A DNA stretch of 64,000 nt from NCBI GenBank assembly GCA_965285935.1, contig OZ260661.1, positions 104,780,001 through 104,844,000 on the forward strand, given 5' to 3'. This DNA comes from Ophelia neglecta (lineage: Eukaryota). The translations under genes were made by a program, and so were the position numbers. Under the pieces are notes generated by a model. It did no database searches and was not told the DNA's origin. It saw only the letters and a program-made list of their open reading frames with translations. Below are positions 11,901 through 64,000 of the stretch, one piece after another (position 1 is the stretch's first letter; the number at the start of each line of letters is the position of its first letter).

Positions 11901-14207
11901 ATTATTTAAGATAGGACTGAAGCATAAAATATTGCTCCTAGAATAAAAGTGTGCTGGGGTATAATATAGTATTAATTCCACCTAGCCCAGACCCATGATA
12001 TTAGTCGCTCTGGTTTCCCCTGTCATTGGTGCTCTTCCTTCTTTATGATTTTACCTGTTCCGTTGGCAGACGATCAGTTTTAGTGCAGTCCACCGTTAAA
12101 TATGCATGGTCCTTAGTTTCATTTCCTAACACACAGCATACTTAATACCAATTCTAGTGTGCTTGCTGAACTGTCTCCTTTATTGCCAGGATGTAGGTAT
12201 TTAAGATGGGTTAGGTATAGTTAATATCCGGGCTATAATTGGCTCGAAGCCTGCCACAAGCCTGCGCGTGTGATTTGTATTTAACGTGACCTGCACATGA
12301 GATGGTTGGTTTAATCATGACCCATCCGTATTTGTTGGCTTGTTGCTGAGCAAGATGGAAGAATTAGTTGCCGGCTCAGTTACAATGACACCAGGCTGTA
12401 AGAATAAATACTGCTCCAACTATGTAGATGGCGTTTTTAGTAGCGGTCACCACCAGCCGAATTATAGCGAAATTAAAACCACCCAATGGACTGAAAAATT
12501 GGTCTGATAATTAAGGTTGTCTGTGAAGCAGGTTAGTTTAAATTGAAAGTACACAGCACAGTAATTATATTACTGGTCTGAATTGGTCTGAATAAAGAGG
12601 TGATATATACAGCTGGTTAAATTGTATTTATATTAAATATAAGTATTTGAAATTTATGAAATTAACAAACAAGCCAAAGTATGCATGCCTCTGAAAGAAA
12701 TCATTAGAAATTGTCTATATACGATACCATGCATATAAGTTACTTGTCTTATGGAGTCTAACCCAACAGTTTAACTTCTGACCTAAAGGAAAATCGTTAT
12801 TCATGAATAACAGGGTTAAATATTGCTTCAGTATTTGAACCACGCCCGCATTATAAGAATTGTGAAATTATCTGAATCTCACATTCTTCGCGATACAACA
12901 AATCTATGAAGTGGGCACTGTGTCAGTTAATCCAATCGATTGTTTGGTTGGCATGCGTATAGAATTGACTGCTCTGCAGTAAACATTGTGTAATTATTAT
13001 GTATGCCGACATATTCACATTACCCAAATGCTCGTTATTAACTATGGTTTGCTAATTTTCGTATAATAGGTTTTGTGTAGCTGTGCCAACATGAGGATTT
13101 AAGCGAAAAAAATACCCTACATCCATTATTGTGCTTATACATATAGGTCACTAAAATAAAGCGGCTCCAGTGCTAGGCGTGCTTGATAATTTTCTCATTT
13201 TAAACGTGCAAATTTGGTTTACAAAAACACATCGCTGTGCCTGTAGGCCAAGGAGTGATCAACACGAATGTCTGCGACAGATTTCATGTAAGTCGGCTAT
13301 ATTTTCGAGCTGCCATTAAGGCCTGTTATCACGCCCTCCCTGATCCCACGCCCAGCCTGGCGTCTTCGACTGCCTCGTTTGGCCCGAAGGCAGGTGTTAT
13401 TCTGCTGTAACAGCTTTCGTCTGCTGATTAGGAAGTTATTAGTCGATTTTTGCCCGTCGATCATTTGTAGACTCCTTGGAATGCAATGAAGTGGCTTTCT
13501 TTGTATCGTCACTTCCTAGGTGCCGTACATGTCAGTTAATCAGCCTTCTGATTGAGGCCTGCATACATTATTGGCTTCAAATGTCTATTCATTGTGTGTT
13601 GTTCTTTTCCAAAATAGCGCCTCCTATTTTACATCCAAGTTGAGTAGCACTCAATAAAGCAGACGAAGCAAATAAGGCAGCATATGTAGTAAGAACCTAG
13701 CCAAAACTTAAACCTATAGGGCTACCAGTCCATATAAGTCAAAATCCAATTAAACGCCAGATCTAGTCATGATCTTATGCAAAAGCCAAGGTTTTTGCCT
13801 GTATAATTCATCCACTCCCAAGGCGATGTATACATGTTTACCAATCTATGCGGACATTTCGTTTATTTATTCAGCTGGAAAAAGAACGCCTATACTTTTA
13901 ACAAGAAATATGCTAATTTATGTAATTTCCGTTTTATATGGCGGTCTCCTGTTATCATTGTGAGAGGATTGTGTTCAAGGAATACTATCCGTGATTATTG
14001 TACTTGTTTTAGTCATTTGCTAAGTCCTTCATTAAAAAAATGTTTTCAGTTTGTCTGCTTTCCACACAGTATAATGCTGTTTTATGGATGTTGCTTGTTA
14101 GGAGGCTTGTAGGATGTTGTATTGTATCAGTGCGCTGCTGGGACAAGGACCTATTACCGTTGATATAGGTCTACGTTGTAGCACTTCATCTGCAGTTTGA
14201 AGGAGCT

Positions 14208-54974: not shown

Positions 54975-57020
54975 TGAATGAATGAATGAATGAAATAGTT
55001 TATTTGGTTTTTTTTTCATCGAGCATTACAAATATAAATACAATTTACAAGTAGAGGGGGAAAAAAGAACCTGGACGCCAGCAATGGCCAGAGGCTGTGT
55101 ACGCTGGACGCCGGGAGATACGCACTTTGTTATTCAACAATTAGTTAATTAGGAATATATAAATATAGAGATTTGGCATAGACTTTTGTATATGCACATA
55201 CAGACACAGACACACACGTATTTATACAAACACGCGTGCATACACACATACATGTATATAAACATATACCTACATACATGTACATATACATACATAACAC
55301 ACACACACATACAATAGGCACACACATACACATAAAACAGATACATGAAACAAACAAAAAAAAAACAAGGGGAAGTAGTAATGGACAATCAGACAGTAAC
55401 TCAAATTAACAAGAGAGCGATTGTTGATACAAAAAAGTGTCTAATCAAAATTACCACAATAAGTGTCTGAACAAAATTAACGAAAACATAAATAGACAAT
55501 AATATTAACCAATACTATAATTATAATGAACACAAGTGTACCTGGCAACAACAATATGCATATAGCATTCACGGAAGTATATAGATACACAGCAGTCATC
55601 TAGAGTGTTACAGTACGAGCAGGTAAGGAGAGTGTGCATTAATGCAATTTAGTATTATGAGCAGTTAAACAAGTGTAACAGTTCCTAACCTGGCAGACTT
55701 CGCTATAACTATTCAAGAGCCTTTTTTTTATTCTCTTAATATTTGTTACATCAATCTTAAATTTAGTTTGTGTGTAACCGACTACAGAATTGATTTTGTA
55801 AGCGATATCGTTTTTCATGATATTTGTTCGAGCCCGTTGAACAGGTATAGCGTTTTTCCGGCGGGTATTATAACCATGTGGAGTATTAGGTAGAGTTAGG
55901 CAGGATAGTAGGAAAGATGGACATTTTTTGTCGACAGCATTACGATAAAGTTTTAATCCCTGGATAATAAAAAGGTCGGTCAGTTTCAGGATTTTAAGCT
56001 TTTTGAAAAGAGGATCAGTGTGTGCGATGAAGCTGGATTTAGTTACAATACGAATAGATCGCTTTTGCAAGAGGAACAGCCTTTCTAGGTTCTTGGGATG
56101 ACACTCGTTGTGCCATACAAGTAAGCCATAAATTAACTGAGAATGGATTATCCCAGAATAAATCATTTTTAAGACATCAGTTGGCAGTTTGTATTTACTC
56201 TGTTCAGAATTCCATTTAATTTGGCAATTTTTTTGGGATTTGTTATCAGTATTACATTTCCAAGAAAACGTTTCGTCGAACCATATGCCCAAAAACTTGT
56301 ATTTTTCAACTAGCTCAATCAGGTGACCTTCAATGGACAGGTCGAGGGTAGAGTGATATGGAGGTAAGGATTTGTGCTTGCTGCGAAAGATTATGTACTT
56401 GGTTTTTTTTATGTTTAAAGAAAGTTTATTTAACTTTAGCCAAGCATAAACGTTGTCAAGTTCCACATTAAGTTGAAGATACAGATCGATAATGTCAGTA
56501 TTATTAAACATCAGACTCGTGTCGTCGGCAAATAGTACAGGATGTGAGCTTGACGTAGCCCGACAGAGATCATTTACGTATATTATAAAAAGTATAGGGC
56601 CTAGGATGGATCCTTGTGGCACTCCACAATTTACGGGCAATAAAGAGGACTGGACATTATTATAAGTAACAAACTGCTTACGAGAGGAGAGGTAGCTCTT
56701 AAGTAAATCCAAGCATTTCCCTCGGATACCATAAAAGCTTAATTTATGTAGGAGTATTGCATGATCTAACGTGTCAAATGCCTTAGATAGATCGAGGAAA
56801 ACTGCTGATACAAATGCATTACTATCCAGCCCATTTGATATATAGCTAAGTAACTCCAGAGCGGCATGTTCGGTAGAATGCTTACTTCGGAATCCATACT
56901 GTGACACAAAAAGTAGATTGTATTTGGTAAGAAAACAGGTTAATCTGTTATATATGATTCTCTCGAATATCTTGGACATGGCAGGAAGCAGGGAGATGGG
57001 TCTATAGTTTGTGTTATTAA
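54975..57020 (-). mobile_element. 5'-truncated young CR1/L2-group LINE (RT, 3'UTR and (ATTC)n tail)
   Basis: RT ORF, then a 3'UTR of about 660 nt with a TG-rich tract, a CCAGC..GCTGG stem near 55070-55110, AATAAA and an (ATTC)4 tail at about 54976-54993. Confidence 0.9.
55180..55345. repeat. Degenerate CA/TA-rich microsatellite in the LINE 3'UTR
   Basis: ACACACACATACA-type low-complexity run. Confidence 0.85.
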
Positions 57021-57102
57021 CCTTCTTCATTCTGTTGCTGTCACCTACATAGTTCAACATATTTTCTTGACGATGTAGTATATCATTTCCTTGCCCAGTC
57101 AT
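55639..57102 (-). CDS. Non-LTR retrotransposon reverse transcriptase (CR1/L2 group), N-terminally truncated
   Basis: NYRPISLLP, QYGFR, FLDLSKAFD, GVPQGSILGP, LFADDT, KFLGI, C-terminal CQVRNCYTC. The first 27 or so aa appear to come from flanking DNA. Confidence 0.92.
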   Translation of the reverse strand: MTGQGNDILHRQENMLNYVGDSNRMKKVNNTNYRPISLLPAMSKIFERIIYNRLTCFLTKYNLLFVSQYGFRSKHSTEHAALELLSYISNGLDSNAFVSAVFLDLSKAFDTLDHAILLHKLSFYGIRGKCLDLLKSYLSSRKQFVTYNNVQSSLLPVNCGVPQGSILGPILFIIYVNDLCRATSSSHPVLFADDTSLMFNNTDIIDLYLQLNVELDNVYAWLKLNKLSLNIKKTKYIIFRSKHKSLPPYHSTLDLSIEGHLIELVEKYKFLGIWFDETFSWKCNTDNKSQKNCQIKWNSEQSKYKLPTDVLKMIYSGIIHSQLIYGLLVWHNECHPKNLERLFLLQKRSIRIVTKSSFIAHTDPLFKKLKILKLTDLFIIQGLKLYRNAVDKKCPSFLLSCLTLPNTPHGYNTRRKNAIPVQRARTNIMKNDIAYKINSVVGYTQTKFKIDVTNIKRIKKRLLNSYSEVCQVRNCYTCLTAHNTKLH

Positions 57103-57251
57103 TAGTATATTTTTGTTATTACCTACCAGGTCTATTCAGCATTGATATTATTTCTAGGACATTCGAAAAAGTTTATTGTAAAATGAGACTGGTGAACTCA
57201 GGGGGGTTCTCTCTATAAGACATAATAAGGTCACGATTGTACAAAAACCAG

Positions 57252-57443: not shown

Positions 57444-58594
57444 GGTCTTTAAAATGGCTTTTTAGTAGTGAGAAGTGTAATTGTCCATATAATTATGCAG
57501 ACAAATGAAGATACCTAAATGATAATACCTTGCTTCTCAAATCTAATAGAACTTAATTTTGAAACTCAATTTATATACAAATCCTTAATTATAAAAACTT
57601 TAAGTACTTAAACTTCCACAAAAAGTCATTTCAAGAAAACTTCCAGAAATGTCACATCAAGACAGTTGTTTGAAATAACTCTGTGAACTTATGGCTCGAA
57701 ATGACCCCCTCAATTCTTACCAAAATTGACAATATTGTATCAATAATATCAATGGAACTCTTAGTTACTCATGCTATTTGCATATATAAGCATTTTTGTT
57801 AATTGTACTGGATTTAATATTTACATTTTCAGGCACAATATCATCAATGATTTGTATAGTAGTCATAATTTCCATATTAAACAGACAGAATGCAACTTTA
57901 AATATTTTCCAACTTCTTATTTTTGTATCGTTTAGCCATTCCTTATGTAGTATAGAACTTGAAATTTGACATTTTTGACATGCAATTACAGTTTTAAAGT
58001 CCCAAAACAAGCTTGGTCCGTGTATGGTCAAAATTCACCTAATTATGAGAAAAATTAGAAAGGAATGCGTTTTCTATCTCAAAATTTACTTCCAGGACAT
58101 TTGTCCCAAAAATGAATAAAAGTTTTAATATTCGTAGTCAATCTTAAAACATTTTAACAGCTAAACATACTTAATGACAAGTTTTACCACTACCTTAATA
58201 TTTGCCAATATTAAGGATGCAAGCACTTCACATACGTCTTCATAATACGTTGCACAGTCCCCCTTGATTATTACGCAGCGTGTGGTGACAAGTTCATCAA
58301 GGAAGTTAAAGCGAAAAATAGTAGTGAATTAAAATAATAAGATCATGTTCCAAACAGAAAATCAGCTAAGTTTAATTAAGCATATGGTAAAATTGTAGCT
58401 GAAAAATAAGACAGAGGTTAAACAAATAAAAGGTGTTTGAAACAGCCATTTTGACCCACTCAACCCACCTACACTCAGCCAAAGAGCCCTCCGGTAACGA
58501 AGGCCGTCATGAGCTGTTGAAACATTAACCAGTTTAGCTTCGAGGGTCACGAGGAACGACTTGTAGCTGGATCCAGAAATATTAAGGAGAGAAT

Positions 58595-59670
58595 GGATAG
58601 CCCCCTGCTTGATAGATATCAAGTCAGAGGCCTCTTCTCCGCGGCAGGTAAAGATTTCCTGGCTGCTATGATACGGAGAAAAAACTAAACGTTGAAACGG
58701 TCCGTGATGCTGGTAATGGTATCGGCCGGAACTTGAGAGAATGAACGAGAATCAATCAGAGAATTTACTATCTTTAATATCATAATTATGTGAGCTGAAC
58801 CTTGACTCTTCTAGATTTACGAGACTCCTATTGAAAGTTTTCTAAAATGGAGGAAACACTACTGGTGTTTCATTACCTGTTAGTTGTCAACCTTGCTGCT
58901 CTCCTCTGCATCATTTGTAGTCTGGGACCTGGTCTTGACTGCTAGGGTTCCAAGCTGTCAGGCAGTACTCAAGGATCGAACGTACCAAAGAGAAATAGGC
59001 CGCACGTTTAAGCTAATAATTCTAAGGTTACTTAGGACTCCCTGGAGATATCCACCCATAAGTATGTTGTGGTCTCGTCCACAGAGATATCTTAACCCTT
59101 AATGATGTAGTTGTGGACTTTTGGTTTGACCCTATAAAACCTTAAAATGCTACACTTTTCAGGATGAAATGACATGCCACACAGTTTCTCCCACTCGGCC
59201 AGTCGGAGCAGGTCCTGCTGGAGGAAGGATGCTGCAATCGTTTAATGATGGTACTTCCCTAAACCCTATGCAGTCATCCGCAAATAATCTAGTCCCAGAC
59301 CCAGCACTAAGTTAAAGATCATTTATGGAAATGGAGAACGGCGTCAGTCCCAGTATACTGCCTTGTGGCACGCCACTGATCACAGGTGCCGGGTCCGATG
59401 CAGCCCCATCCTCCAACACTCTTTGGATTCTTTTACCAACACCTTTTAGGTTCTTCCGACAATGAATTACCGTATCAATTTCAGGGGTCCTCGTCTGACA
59501 CCATATTGGTTCAGCATGAGTAGAAGTCGCTCTTTAGGTACATGGTCAAACCCTTTGCTTAAGTCCGAATTTTGCCAGATCATGCTGCTTCCCCTTGTCC
59601 ATGGATTTGGTGAGCACATATGCCAACGTTAGCATCTGAGTCTCACAATTCATGCTGATAATCCGTAAAG
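58595..59670 (-). mobile_element. Decayed CR1 LINE RT-to-C-terminus fragment
   Basis: CETQML, SMDKGKQHDL, LSKGFDHVP, SGVPQGSILG, RLFADDC, LQQDLLRLAEWEKLCGMSFHPEKC, LVRSILEYC..WNP, QRRAAR. Multiple stops and frameshifts. Confidence 0.88.
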
Positions 59671-59699
59671 GACGTAATTTGAGTCAAAGTGCTGCATGA

Positions 59700-60327
59700 T
59701 GTTATGTCACACGATCTAAGGGGCTATTTGACTTTTTAATTTTTCTAATTGCAACCAATTATCTAGCTTGACATTTATTTATCTTTCCCCCTTCGCTACA
59801 AACTCGTTTGCGTCTGTGTAGGTTAAGTAACATATTTCTTATTAAGAATTGTTGATTCACTGTAAGATTTACCTTAAATTAAATCATAGACACTTTAAAA
59901 TAGATATAATACAAATTTGAATTGCTTAAAATAAGTCATATGTTTAGCAATATACATATAGGCTTAGACTGGTTTCGCTAAAGTTCGACTTTTATCCATA
60001 TACATGTAAAGTTAACTATCTGTCCAAAAATGCAATCGGAAATCACCAAATACCAAGATAAGAACATATGTTTTTGATCAAAACCTGTAGTTTGTGATGT
60101 GCAACTCGGGAAATAGCGTCGTCACGGATGTGACGTCGGTCAGGAAGTGACGTCGCATAATGGCGTTGCTGGTGGAAACGTTGCAGGTGCCATATTAAGT
60201 GATAGCGAGATGTCCACTCATCATTTCAGCTCCTTTCTTTCTCATGGCTTTCTGTGTCAATCATAGCAAATGGTCGCACACGTTTATGTCGCGAGATCAC
60301 AAATTCTCCACCTTTATACAGGTATGA
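59700..60327 (+). promoter_or_regulatory. Promoter / first-exon cassette, copy A
   Basis: TGACGTC (60131), GGAAGTGACGTC (60143-60154), ATAATGGCG, GCCATATT, TCGCGAGA, donor CAG|GTATGA at 60321/60322. Homologous to copies B and C. Confidence 0.55.
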
Positions 60328-60364
60328 AAAATCTTTACTTTCAAAGGCTCAATCCCAGCGGTGC

Positions 60365-60495
60365 TACTATTCGCGTAAAGCGTGTAGCAAATGTATCCTC
60401 CAGCCTGACCTGCCCCGACTGGCCGAGTGAGAGAAACTGTGGGGCATGTCATTCCATCCTGAAAAGTGTACTATTCGCGTTAAGCGTGTAGCAAA
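60365..60495 (+). other. 75-bp inverted copy of a CR1 segment flanked by a 27-bp direct duplication
   Basis: 60396-60470 is the reverse complement of 59151-59225 (69/75 identical). TACTATTCGCGT(A/T)AAGCGTGTAGCAAA occurs at 60365-60391 and 60469-60495. Confidence 0.9.
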
Positions 60496-60794
60496 AAAAA
60501 ATTTCTGTTGTGATAACTTCAGTGCTGTACTCTGATACAGGGAAGACAATTCTTTCCTTTGTTTAAATATTAGCAAAAGTTATCTTATTCTTCTTCTCAA
60601 TCCCAAATCTAAATCCCATCGGAGGTACTGTTCTCATACAAGAAAAGCCCTCTGCTTTGTACTTGAGAAGCACTGTGGCGGTTTTATAGTAATTTTCATT
60701 GATAGCGATATCATTCAATAAGTAGTATTATTATATAACTAAAACAAAGTTGGCTTTTGAAATTGGCATTTTTATGCATTTATAGCTTTAACCA

Positions 60795-61630
60795 TTTTAT
60801 ATAACTAAGTACTGATTGACGGTGAATCGTGGCTATGATTATTTCCGATCCCTCACAGCTTCTATGTTATATATGCAATATTTCATGTGTTTAAGGGGCT
60901 ATTTCGACTTTTAATTTGCTACTTCTAATCAATTATCCAGCCTAACATAAGGCTATCTTTCCCCTTTGCCTCATACTCGTTATCGTCTCTGTAGGATAAG
61001 TTACATACTTCTTATTATGAAATGTTGATTGAAAGTTAAATTTGCACAGCGTATCCCTACCATTATCCCCACCCCAGTCTAAATACCCACTGATATTATA
61101 TATTTTAAGGACCGGACTCCGGGGAAAAGTTTTGTATTACAGTAAAAGATATTGTACGGTAAGGCTTATAATAAAATACGTATACCCAGGCTTTTTTTCC
61201 AAGCGGTATGATGATTAAAAGCGGCACAACTGGATGAGCGATATGGTGTACTTGACTAAAAATCGCCCACACTTCCCGGGGTCCATTGATCTACTGGTTG
61301 ATCACACGTTAAACCATCCATCTAATAGGGACATCCCCATAATTTCAGTCTTGGTGGCATCAAGGACAATAGGCTCTCTTTTTTTTAACGAAAACAGCCA
61401 CTTTGTGTTCAACGCCACCCGGGAGGGGGCTTCGCCTTGGAGGGACGTCGGCCGGGAAGTGACGTCGTATAATAGCGTTGCCGATGAAACGTTATCAAGG
61501 TGCCGTATTTGTAAGCTACCATCATTTCGTTTCTCTATTCCTCAGCGCTTAATGTATCCGGCTTTAAGATTTGTAATGTGCCAGTTTCTGTCGTGAGAAC
61601 TCCCAGTACTGCCCATTCTTGCAGGTAAGC
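60795..61630 (+). promoter_or_regulatory. Promoter / first-exon cassette, copy B
   Basis: 60890-61040 is homologous to 59717-59870. GGAAGTGACGTC at 61455-61466; donor CAG|GTAAGC at 61624/61625. Confidence 0.55.
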
Positions 61631-62863
61631 ATTTCCCAATATTTATTATGATACGGCTAATTATAAGCATATCCTTTTTTGTAAACTTCATTATGTTAAT
61701 GACTAAATTCCATTTGGGATAGACCTACTATTGTTATATAGACGTAAGTTTTGGAATAGGCCTACGTACTATGGTTAAATAGGAGTAAACTGTCTGCTAA
61801 ACTAAACTGTCGATGTTTCCATTCATTCAGCCACGGTTTATATAACATTTCCTGAAGCTACTGGTAATTTGATTACGGATTTAGGGGATGTTCATTTTCA
61901 ATGGGGGGGGGGGGGGGGGCATATGGGACAAGTCTAAAAGAACTGTCCTCCTCTATAGGGAGCGGGAAGGGGAGCGGGATAAAGGGAGAGGGGCCAGAGG
62001 GGGATGGGGGGATATTGCCTTGGAATACCCGCTTTCAACGCTCAACGCTCAACACAGTCTAGGCATTTCTCTCTGTCTACAATATGCAAAAATTTTCTCT
62101 GCAAATAACACACCGAGGTGGAAACGCGATTGCATTTACTGTGAAAATCCTGCTTGCGTTTTAACGCAAAATCCCAGAGGGACAACCTATGAAATTGTTG
62201 AACCCGATTTTTTCGTTATGATAATATCACCTATTTTAAAGTATATGATATTCCTTATAGCACATAGAATAAATTATAATATGGCTGTATATACTGACCA
62301 TGGATTTGAGAACACGCGCATCAGATAAAAATGGCCAGTGACCGAGGCAATACTGTAAAGTTGTAAGCTATATCTACCTAGGTGTAGACTATAATTTAGA
62401 CAGAGGTATACATGGATAATGCTGAGTATGTCCTAGTTTCAATATTTAAGGATCGCCAATGTGTCGATATTATAGATAATTCCAATATCGTGTGTCAATA
62501 TTTAAGAAAACATGTTTTGAGCGAATAGTTAAAATAATTTTAGTGTTAGGGACAAATGATATAGGCCTATAAGCCTTGTACTATATTAACCTGCACACAT
62601 TGCCTGATGCCATTTATGCTCGTCTTGTGGATTCATAATAGATCTACTGCTTAAAATTTTAAGGTTTTATCACGAAATATCTAAAAATTATACCATTTCG
62701 ACGAGTTAAGTTTATTTCCTAGGGGGGGGGGGAGGTTAGGTGCCATGGGGAGTAAAGATGTCATTTTTTATGCTGCTTGGGTTGCCAAATATGAGAACAA
62801 GTAAATCCATTGTTCTAGAAAGAGAAAAAAAATTCCAAGTGTTTAAATTAGTTTTCCTTTTAG

Positions 62864-63033
62864 GCTCTTCCAAGTACACAGACAATGAACACTGGCCAAT
62901 CTGTACTTTACCATTACAGACAACTATATCACCATGAAGCTTACCAGAGGAACGCTTTCAAATATAACTCAGAGGTATATATTTGGGGAATTAGTCCAAT
63001 GAGAGTGACACATCTCCTAACACAGATCATGTG
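62864..63033 (+). CDS. Candidate internal or start-codon exon downstream of cassettes A and B
   Basis: TTTTCCTTTTAG acceptor and TG|GTAAGC donor; one frame open throughout (ATG at 62885: MNTGQSVLYHYRQLYHHEAYQRNAFKYNSEVYIWGISPMRVTHLLTQIM). No recognisable domain. Confidence 0.3.
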
Positions 63034-63289
63034 GTAAGCCGCCCTCCCATAGACACATAAACACACCCCTTCTTCTTCCCCAGATATCCTTCCAAATTTT
63101 TCGCATAAAAGCTCTTGTTTAGGGAAGTCAACTTTGATATAGGCCTAATATTTGTGGGTAAAACATCAAGTCGAAAAACTAAAAAAACTTCTGTATTTAT
63201 AAATGCTTCTATCCTGTGTAATATAAGTTAGTATTTGTAAACACGTGAATAGTTACGCAGTTCTGGGTAACTCATTATCCTGCTGAGCC

Positions 63290-63575
63290 GGCCTGTACCG
63301 ACCGCTGAAGAAACTTGCCAATATTTAGGCCCGATCTCTCTCAGCTAGAATTATTATATTTAATTACTAAATACTGATAGAAGGTGAACCTTGCAATATT
63401 AGGCCCGATCCCCCTCAACTGCAAACATATCATTTTATAAATAAATACTGATTGACGTTGAATCTTGCCAATGATTAGGCCCGGATCTTCTAAGCTGAGA
63501 TTAGATAATTGTAAAACTAAAATGCTGATTGCCGATGAACCCTGCCACTGAGTAGGCCCGATCCCTCAGTATAAG
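63290..63575. repeat. Four-copy degenerate tandem repeat of about 75 bp
   Basis: TAGGCCCG at 63326, 63400, 63476 and 63553 (spacing 74/76/77). A single related unit lies at about 60795-60860. Confidence 0.85.
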
Positions 63576-64000
63576 CTAAGGTACATATTTCTTATTAAAG
63601 AAATGTTGGTTGACAGTAAAATGTGCATTACATTAGATCATTGGTTGAAGGCAAGATACTTAAAAAGTAGATTATTACAAATGAAATTGCATAAAAATAG
63701 CCTAAAATTTTGCTAACCACATAGCGGCTTAGAATAATTTACATGTATTTGTCAACTATCTGTACAATCTAAAACTGTATTAGGTAAACACCAAATCCAA
63801 GATAAGAACATATGTTTTGATCAACATGTCTAGTTTGTAATGTGCCAATCGGAAAATAGCGTCGTCAAGGATGTGAGGTCGGCCCGGAAGTGACGCGCAT
63901 AATGGAGTTGCTGGTGGAAACGTTGTCGAGGTGCCATATTTAGGGGGTCGCGAGAGGTCCACTCATCATTTTACTCCTTTATTTCTCAAAGCTTACTCTG
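63575..64000 (+). promoter_or_regulatory. Promoter / first-exon cassette, copy C (truncated by window end)
   Basis: 63740-64000 is collinear with 60001-60255 (CCAAGATAAGAACATATGTTTT, AAATAGCGTCGTCA, GTTGCTGGTGGAAACGTTG, GTCCACTCATCATTT). CCGGAAGTGACGC at 63884-63896. Confidence 0.55.

What the first reader, a model, noticed from the sequence alone, without database searches (positions are those of the whole stretch)
59700..64000. Tandem array of three duplicated ETS-CRE/YY1 promoter plus non-coding first-exon cassettes
Seen: three homologous units (A about 59700-60327, B about 60795-61630, C about 63290 to beyond 64000). The best-preserved block in all three is (C)GGAAGTGACG(T)C followed by YY1-like ATAATGGCG/GCCATATT. 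A and C also carry TCGCGAGA. A and B each end about 170-180 bp downstream in a CAG|GT donor, and the ATGs next to the motif in A and C run into stops. Known: GGAAGTGACG is the overlapping ETS+CRE composite of animal housekeeping promoters; YY1 and TCTCGCGAGA motifs also mark such promoters. Inference: a serial array of alternative promoters and 5' exons spliced to shared downstream exons (possibly 62864-63033 or beyond the window), or the 5' ends of tandem paralogs. Motifs retained while flanks diverge suggest selection. This is the best candidate for an undescribed regulatory system here.
Basis: partly seen in the sequence, partly recalled or inferred. Interest (0 to 1): 0.7.

Follow-up and report, generated by a model that had tools for sequence, protein, structure and literature searches.

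The report
Dispersed family of tandem promoter arrays
The three repeats begin a seven-copy run of a DNA module that occurs at least 162 times in nine clusters of this animal genome, one with 99 copies in a row; its selectively preserved transcription-factor motifs and splice signal suggest it likely works as a promoter with a non-coding first exon, which is still untested.

Summary
The repeats are real but are only the start of something larger. The local run has 7 copies (3 in the window). The same core occurs 162 times in 9 clusters on 4 chromosomes, including arrays of 27 and 99 copies with 1.3-1.7 kb units. It was never found alone: 0 of 20 lone motif hits are members. Among five intact local copies (76-87% identical), the longest invariant runs fall on the ETS/CRE, X-box-like and initiator-like motifs. 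Most lineages keep a GT donor 170-325 nt downstream. At three other loci the module sits in front of a spliced orphan gene (4 of 4 copies). The core has no conserved RNA structure or Rfam match. Best reading: a promoter plus first-exon module spread by segmental and tandem duplication into promoter-dense macrosatellites, arranged like the miR-430 locus or DXZ4. Transcription is untested. No earlier finding of this scan matched the sequence.

The parts
59700..60570 (+). Unit A: upstream spacer, motif core, predicted non-coding first exon and donor
60143..60152 (+). ETS/CRE composite 10-mer of unit A
   Evidence: invariant in 5 of 5 intact A-type copies
60157..60179 (+). YY1-like ATAATGGCG followed by X-box-like GTTGCTGGTGGAAAC
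   Evidence: X-box consensus from PMC10530576 passage; YY1 consensus CAAGATGGCGGC
60215..60226 (+). Invariant 12-mer CACTCATCATTT, initiator-like (label recalled); candidate transcription start
   Evidence: role inferred
60319..60327 (+). Predicted splice donor of unit A (CAG|GTATGA)
60392..60468 (.). Insertion in unit A, an inverted copy of about 59146-59225, flanked by a 27-nt duplication
   Evidence: I1, D16
60795..61630 (+). Unit B, a separate sub-lineage; ETS/CRE 61455-61464, donor CAG|GTAAGC at 61624|61625
   Evidence: tree
60813..60841 (+). DECA-like/CCAAT-like upstream module (CCAAT degraded in this copy)
62420..63235 (.). Old interspersed repeat containing the proposed 'shared exon' 62864-63033; not part of the module
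63290..63580 (+). Four tandem 74-77 bp modules with TGATTGAC-like and CCAAT-like motifs; best copy at 63449
63560..64000 (+). Unit C, ETS/CRE at 63886-63895; its donor and units D-G lie beyond the window (G000:C1:104844066-104850300)

Best explanation
The window holds the first three of seven tandem copies of a 0.6-1.7 kb module that occurs at least 162 times in nine clusters, and the module likely acts as an RNA polymerase II promoter with a non-coding first exon. Shown: upstream DECA/CCAAT-like modules, an ETS/CRE + YY1-like + X-box-like core, a GT donor 170-325 nt downstream in most lineages, clustering, and position in front of a spliced orphan ORF at three loci. Inferred: the module was carried to new sites by segmental duplication and amplified in place by unequal crossing-over or conversion; selection on transcription-factor binding kept the motifs while spacers decayed; at the window locus and the large arrays it would give redundant starts for spliced non-coding transcripts, or at most extra upstream starts for the SDR gene 2.9 kb past the last core.
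For: Five intact local A-type copies, collected by BLAST and position rather than by motif, are 76-87% identical; invariant columns are 122 of 160 in -30..+130 against 245 of 500 outside (Fisher p 1e-9), and the three longest invariant runs in -30..+130 are the ETS/CRE 10-mer, the X-box-like 15-mer and the initiator-like 12-mer. Across 7 lineages (42 pairs) flanks are at random level (51-55%, random 52%) while the 10-mer is 100%, the YY1-like block 79% and the X-box-like block 72%. 151 of 162 copies keep the exact 10-mer. Donors at homologous positions: C2:90.04 4 of 4, C2:54.69 13 of 13 anchored copies (14 in all), C1:124.26 26 of 27, C1:124.9 89 of 99. Core plus exon is less variable inside arrays: 18 of 217 against 178 of 1063 sites (9 regular units of 27, p 0.001) and 35 of 217 against 303 of 1331 (65 regular units of 99, p 0.03). 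All 4 copies of an acidic orphan gene have the module upstream. The DECA/CCAAT-like module has 0 matches at up to 8 mismatches in 596 kb of flanking strand-length.
Against: Promoter activity and splicing are untested. Five of the nine clusters were found with patterns that required the ETS/CRE motif, so the 100% between-lineage value is partly circular and motif-less lineages would be missed. Array sites are not independent, and the exon-only test in the 99-copy array is not significant (p 0.26). Local copies show decay: F has a deletion, G lost donor 1, A and C lost donor 2, C has a changed YY1-like site. The C5:60.71 copies lack a consistent strong donor and one C7:29.51 copy has GC instead of GT. 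The X-box-like site is degraded in the two largest arrays. The best donor in random 300-nt windows reaches 3.4 at the 75th and 4.8 at the 90th percentile, so scores of 3.5-4.5 are weak by themselves. CpG depletion of the SDR gene begins after a separate CpG-rich patch 1.7-2.3 kb past the last core, which points to its own promoter. No common target was seen downstream of 7 cluster ends.
Confidence: 0.6

Rival explanations
1. Mostly dead promoter copies: one real promoter (of the orphan gene or a lost gene) was duplicated and now turns over as an ordinary satellite; motif conservation reflects past selection and conversion, not present activity at the window locus.
For: Decay in local copies, retroelement insertions inside clusters, frameshifts or stops in 3 of 4 orphan-gene copies, 97% identity among 65 regular units of the big array as in concerted evolution.
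Against: Motif-exact invariant runs among 76-87% identical local copies need constraint acting after those copies diverged; reduced variation in core plus exon in both large arrays.
Confidence: 0.2
2. One reading: serial alternative promoters and first exons spliced to one downstream gene, here the SDR (retinol-dehydrogenase-like) gene.
For: All 7 local copies are on the gene's strand, the last core lies 2.9 kb before its ATG, and the ATG exon starts with an acceptor 7 nt upstream; adh_short hits on 2 of 4 exons tested, both below Pfam's cut-off. Two cassettes precede the orphan gene at C5:28.5 and C7:84.45.
Against: A CpG-rich patch with possible donors at L001:8885 and 9073 lies between the array and the ATG; the proposed shared exon is an old repeat; the model does not explain the 27- and 99-copy arrays.
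Confidence: 0.12
3. The module is the end or internal promoter of an unrecognised mobile element (LTR, LINE 5' monomer, Helitron or Penelope-type repeat).
For: Presence on 4 chromosomes in both orientations.
Against: All 162 copies are in clusters of 2 or more; 0 of 20 lone motif hits fetched (of 21) are members; no inverted ends at 4 of 6 clusters tested, the other two matches appearing to be unit fragments; longest ATG frame in the big unit is 51 codons; no exact match in viral contigs.
Confidence: 0.05
4. Array of small-RNA genes (miRNA hosts or spliced-leader RNAs) in which the conserved block is the RNA product.
For: Unit size and three internal sub-repeats in the 99-copy array resemble the miR-430 layout.
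Against: No Rfam match at E up to 1 in 30 kb; core folding z-scores between -1.2 and +1.6 in 21 copies; 1 of 9 predicted pairs covaries; sequence after the donor is not conserved between lineages; the sub-repeat is confined to 2 of the 11 fetched regions.
Confidence: 0.03

Closest known systems
Zebrafish miR-430 locus (10.1101/2021.08.09.455629 passages; PMC10417697 passages)
   Same: Tandem promoter-bearing units at similar density: over 300 promoters, one per 1.8 kb in 0.6 Mb there; 99 cores, one per about 1.65 kb in 163 kb here.
   Different: No miRNA was detected here, activity is not shown, the array is split into two divergent halves, and diverged relatives form 8 more clusters.
Macrosatellites with internal promoters, DXZ4 and D4Z4 (PMC5687341 passages)
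   Same: Kilobase units in tens of tandem copies with a promoter in each unit.
   Different: Here units are AT-rich, carry a donor-terminated exon and belong to a deeply diverged multi-locus family that also heads a protein-coding gene.
Clustered protocadherin and chelicerate sDscam 5' cassettes (PMC4835542 abstract)
   Same: Serial promoter plus first-exon cassettes on one strand.
   Different: Those cassettes encode variable protein domains; these exons are non-coding in the window and no shared constant exon was identified.
Segmentally duplicated regulatory element families (10.64898/2025.12.03.692127 abstract)
   Same: Families of similar cis-elements created by segmental duplication and placed next to new genes.
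   Different: Described for human elements with chromatin data; tandem amplification to about 100 copies is not in the abstract.
ETS-CRE and DECA-CCAAT composite promoter elements (PMC3464117, PMC6023610, 10.64898/2026.02.16.706105 passages)
   Same: The core 10-mer matches ETS-CRE; the upstream module matches TGATTGACAG at 9 of 10 positions followed by CCAAT at fixed spacing.
   Different: Defined in vertebrates; binding here is untested and the DECA-CCAAT spacing convention could not be matched.

Membership tests
Macrosatellite with internal promoter (DXZ4/D4Z4 kind) | Kilobase-scale units in long tandem arrays | tested here: met
   27 copies of about 1.34 kb and 99 of about 1.65 kb; the window cluster itself has only 7 irregular copies
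Macrosatellite with internal promoter (DXZ4/D4Z4 kind) | Transcription from a promoter inside each unit | not testable with these tools
   Only motif and conservation evidence
miR-430-type promoter-dense cluster | One promoter-like unit per 1-2 kb over 100 kb or more | tested here: met
   99 cores in 163 kb; activity not shown
miR-430-type promoter-dense cluster | Pre-miRNA hairpins in the units | tested here: inconclusive
   No Rfam hit; core unstructured; best 90-nt window in one 1.7-kb unit had z -4.0 but an irregular stem
miR-430-type promoter-dense cluster | Early zygotic transcription body | not testable with these tools
   Needs nascent-RNA imaging
Pcdh/sDscam alternative 5' cassettes | Cassette exons encode variable protein domains | tested here: not met
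   ATG frames stop after 12, 22 and 12 codons in A, B, C
Pcdh/sDscam alternative 5' cassettes | Each cassette splices to shared constant exons | not testable with these tools
   Proposed exon rejected as an old repeat; SDR acceptor remains possible
Transposable element | Dispersed solo copies | tested here: not met
   All 162 copies clustered; 0 of 20 lone hits are members; genome-wide counts are lower bounds
Transposable element | Terminal repeats or own coding capacity | tested here: not met
   target-site duplications were not searched systematically
Spliced-leader RNA genes | Conserved leader and conserved downstream part with Sm site (features recalled) | tested here: not met
   Sequence after the donor differs between lineages; no Rfam hit; trans-splicing reported absent in an annelid (PMC7854359 passages)
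ETS-CRE composite element | 11-mer CGGAAGTGACG | tested here: inconclusive
   10-mer in 151 of 162; the full 11-mer in 3 of 7 local copies (C, E, F), other lineages mostly read AGGAAG or GGGAAG
DECA-CCAAT composite element | [quoted passage not shown] | tested here: inconclusive
   9 nt from decamer end to CCAAT, 11 nt up to its middle A; the paper's counting rule is in a figure and supplement not seen
RFX X-box | GTNRCC N0-3 RGYAAC | tested here: inconclusive
   One mismatch at C2:54.69, two in local A-type copies (left half fits the monomer GTTRCY), degraded in the two largest arrays

The most novel reading that the evidence does not exclude
An invertebrate has turned one housekeeping-type promoter module into a family of promoter arrays whose job is transcription itself: the 99-copy divergent array forms a germline or early-embryo transcription hub like the miR-430 body but with a non-coding spliced product, and the smaller clusters (including this window) recruit neighbouring genes into the same regulon.
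Probability: 0.15. Interest if true: 0.8.

Novelty: new variant of a known kind. Interest (0 to 1): 0.5.

Why it matters
Promoter-dense tandem arrays are known mainly from vertebrates (miR-430, DXZ4, D4Z4 in the papers read). A family at nine loci with 2 to 99 copies, deep divergence and motif-selective conservation is a natural series for asking how promoters spread without transposons, whether promoter copy number is itself selected, and whether transcription bodies exist in spiralian embryos. One CAGE or nascent-RNA data set would test it.

Tried and rejected
No RNA holder listed for the stretch; this says nothing about expression. The three listed runs are DNA-like contig sets of one sample; they cover the window stretch and 29 and 28 of 30 bins of 5 kb of the large array at far higher depth, compatible with a multi-copy array but not a copy count. 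Structured-RNA reading of the core rejected. Shared exon 62864-63033 rejected. I first took 58.3-59.7 kb for a DIRS-like element; six-frame reading shows decayed reverse-transcriptase LINE sequence (label recalled from motifs). Orphan protein exon: no Pfam family and no homolog among 1652 candidates of 194-618 residues; longer or shorter forms were not searched. No exact match of the core pattern in metagenome or viral contigs. A fuzzy module search returned nothing anywhere because of a pattern fault and was redone. The first within-array variation count was confounded by irregular units and was replaced, which kept 65 of 99 and 9 of 27 units. A profile search of the whole genome was not available, so 162 is a lower bound from fetched regions. 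Literature searches showed no description of this family in their listings; they were not exhaustive. PMC9904021 was not held; supplements of the bioRxiv papers were not seen and may bear on the DECA-CCAAT spacing.
Full report
Observation. The three units are present as described. GGAAGTGACG is exact at 60143, 61455 and 63886; 9 matches at up to one mismatch compare with 1.68 expected. Donors are at 60321|60322 and 61624|61625, and the ATG frames stop after 12, 22 and 12 codons. The exact YY1-like 9-mer is only in A, and the two TCGCGAGA sites are not at homologous positions.

Local context. The window is G000:C1:104780001-104844000. Four more copies follow, giving 7 in about 10 kb, all on the + strand. 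Some are damaged: F has a deletion after the X-box-like site, G lost the first donor, A and C lost the second. A multi-exon short-chain dehydrogenase gene starts 2.9 kb after the last core; its ATG exon begins with an acceptor, and 2 of 4 exons tested hit adh_short weakly. A separate CpG-rich patch with possible donors lies between array and ATG, and CpG depletion starts only after it, so the gene probably has its own promoter (inference from invertebrate gene-body methylation, general knowledge). The proposed shared exon belongs to an 800-bp old repeat with four other genomic copies at 66-80% identity.

Family. BLAST and pattern searches found the core at eight more places; reversed-pattern controls gave 0, 2 and 0 matches against 138, 55 and 28. 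A profile from 18 copies, run over 773 kb of window and fetched DNA, counts 162 copies: 7 here, 27 at C1:124.26 Mb, 99 at C1:124.89-125.05 Mb (34 minus, 65 plus, largely divergent), 14 at C2:54.69, 4 at C2:90.04, 2 at C5:28.52, 5 at C5:60.71, 2 at C7:84.45 and 2 head-to-head at C7:29.51. A looser 16-mer gave 47 matches (control 10), 26 in known clusters; 20 of the other 21 were fetched and none is a member (best 9.7 bits against at least 32.8). In a tree of 25 representative copies, the C1 clusters group together (100/99) and most clusters form their own clade, which fits dispersal followed by local amplification; the root is midpoint only.

Constraint. Among five intact A-type local copies (76-87% identical), 122 of 160 columns are invariant in -30..+130 against 245 of 500 outside, and the longest runs in that stretch are the ETS/CRE 10-mer, an X-box-like 15-mer and an initiator-like 12-mer. 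Between seven lineages the flanks are at random level while the motif blocks are 72-100% identical; the 100% value is partly circular because five clusters were found by motif. Within arrays, core plus exon is modestly less variable (p 0.001 and 0.03; sites not independent; exon alone in the big array p 0.26). The core does not fold better than shuffles, covariation is 1 of 9 pairs, and Rfam gives nothing, so the constraint looks like DNA-binding sites, not an RNA product.

Anatomy. Upstream 74-77 bp modules carry TGATTGACGG, nine bases, then CCAAT in the best copies; they occur in six of nine clusters and not in flanking DNA at up to 8 mismatches. This resembles the TALE/NF-Y element bound at zebrafish blastula stages (PMC6023610 passages); the published 11-bp spacing may or may not equal ours. 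ETS-CRE is enriched in human housekeeping open chromatin (PMC3464117 passages); YY1 acts best at or just after the start site and NF-Y upstream (10.1101/2024.07.09.602649 passages), the order seen here. A GT donor follows at +170-181 in the C1 clusters and +282-324 elsewhere, usually about 35 nt after a GTCG-containing block; C5:60.71 is the exception. At C5:28.53, C7:84.45 and C7:29.51 the module precedes a gene for an acidic protein, with 491 codons open across three exons at C5; all 4 genomic copies have it upstream, three with frameshifts or stops. No homolog or Pfam family was found for its largest exon. Seven cluster ends share no downstream exon-like sequence other than ordinary repeats.

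Mechanism. Shown: structure, copy number in the assembly, clustering, motif-selective conservation, linkage to the orphan gene. Inferred: promoter activity, first-exon splicing, spread by segmental duplication and unequal exchange, selection on factor binding.

Comparison and verdict. In layout it is closest to the miR-430 locus and to macrosatellites with internal promoters, and in origin to segmentally duplicated regulatory families (abstract only). It fails membership of Pcdh/sDscam cassettes (non-coding exons), of typical transposons and of spliced-leader genes. The listings of nine paper searches showed no account of this family, and no earlier finding of this scan matched its sequence. 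It is a new variant of a known kind, worth an RNA and chromatin test; interest 0.5.

Noticed in passing
G000:C5:28534598-28540000; C7:84447000-84454600; C7:29511900-29524500 (L048, L049, L056, L061, L062): Four copies of a multi-exon gene for an acidic, low-complexity orphan protein, 83-91% identical at DNA level, each behind the module; the C7:29.51 pair is head-to-head; three copies carry frameshifts or stops.
   Followed up: partly
G000:C5:28523600-28534500 (L047, L048): About 11 kb insertion between the two cassettes with a RecQ-like helicase ORF and a transposase-like ORF; resembles an Academ-type transposon (label recalled, no call).
   Followed up: no
G000:C1:124946400-124953800 (L018, L019): The 99-copy array switches strand here, with a reverse-transcriptase LINE in a 5.6-kb gap just after the first plus copy; a separate 4-copy inversion lies at 124897-124902 kb.
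   Followed up: partly
L028:5340-6350: Exons 3.5 kb past the right end of the large array read like a small secreted phospholipase A2-like gene (motif recalled, not confirmed by a call).
   Followed up: no
window 60392-60468 and 59146-59225: An 80-nt, 90% inverted copy of nearby LINE DNA sits inside unit A between duplicated 27-mers, like a templated repair insertion.
   Followed up: partly
window 55639-57135 (-) and 58300-59700 (-): Reverse-transcriptase LINE remnants; the first hits RVT_1 at 2e-33.
   Followed up: yes
window 51035-52219 (+): ORFs for a probable single-pass membrane protein with a cysteine-rich juxtamembrane stretch and a PPPSY motif.
   Followed up: no
G000:C2:54683800-54711300 (L043-L046): In this array, roughly 570-bp sub-units that lost the ETS/CRE core still keep GTAAGT after a conserved 50-nt block, which could mean the donor is under its own constraint.
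   Followed up: partly
G000:C12:52128806-52228024: Four near-identical segments spaced about 33 kb apart, a tandem segmental duplication unrelated to the module.
   Followed up: no
G000:C5:60714500-60728000 (L051, L052): A roughly 480-bp satellite array directly follows the five-copy cluster.
   Followed up: no
window 13507-13516 (-): A lone exact GGAAGTGACG that is not a family member (no profile hit).
   Followed up: yes
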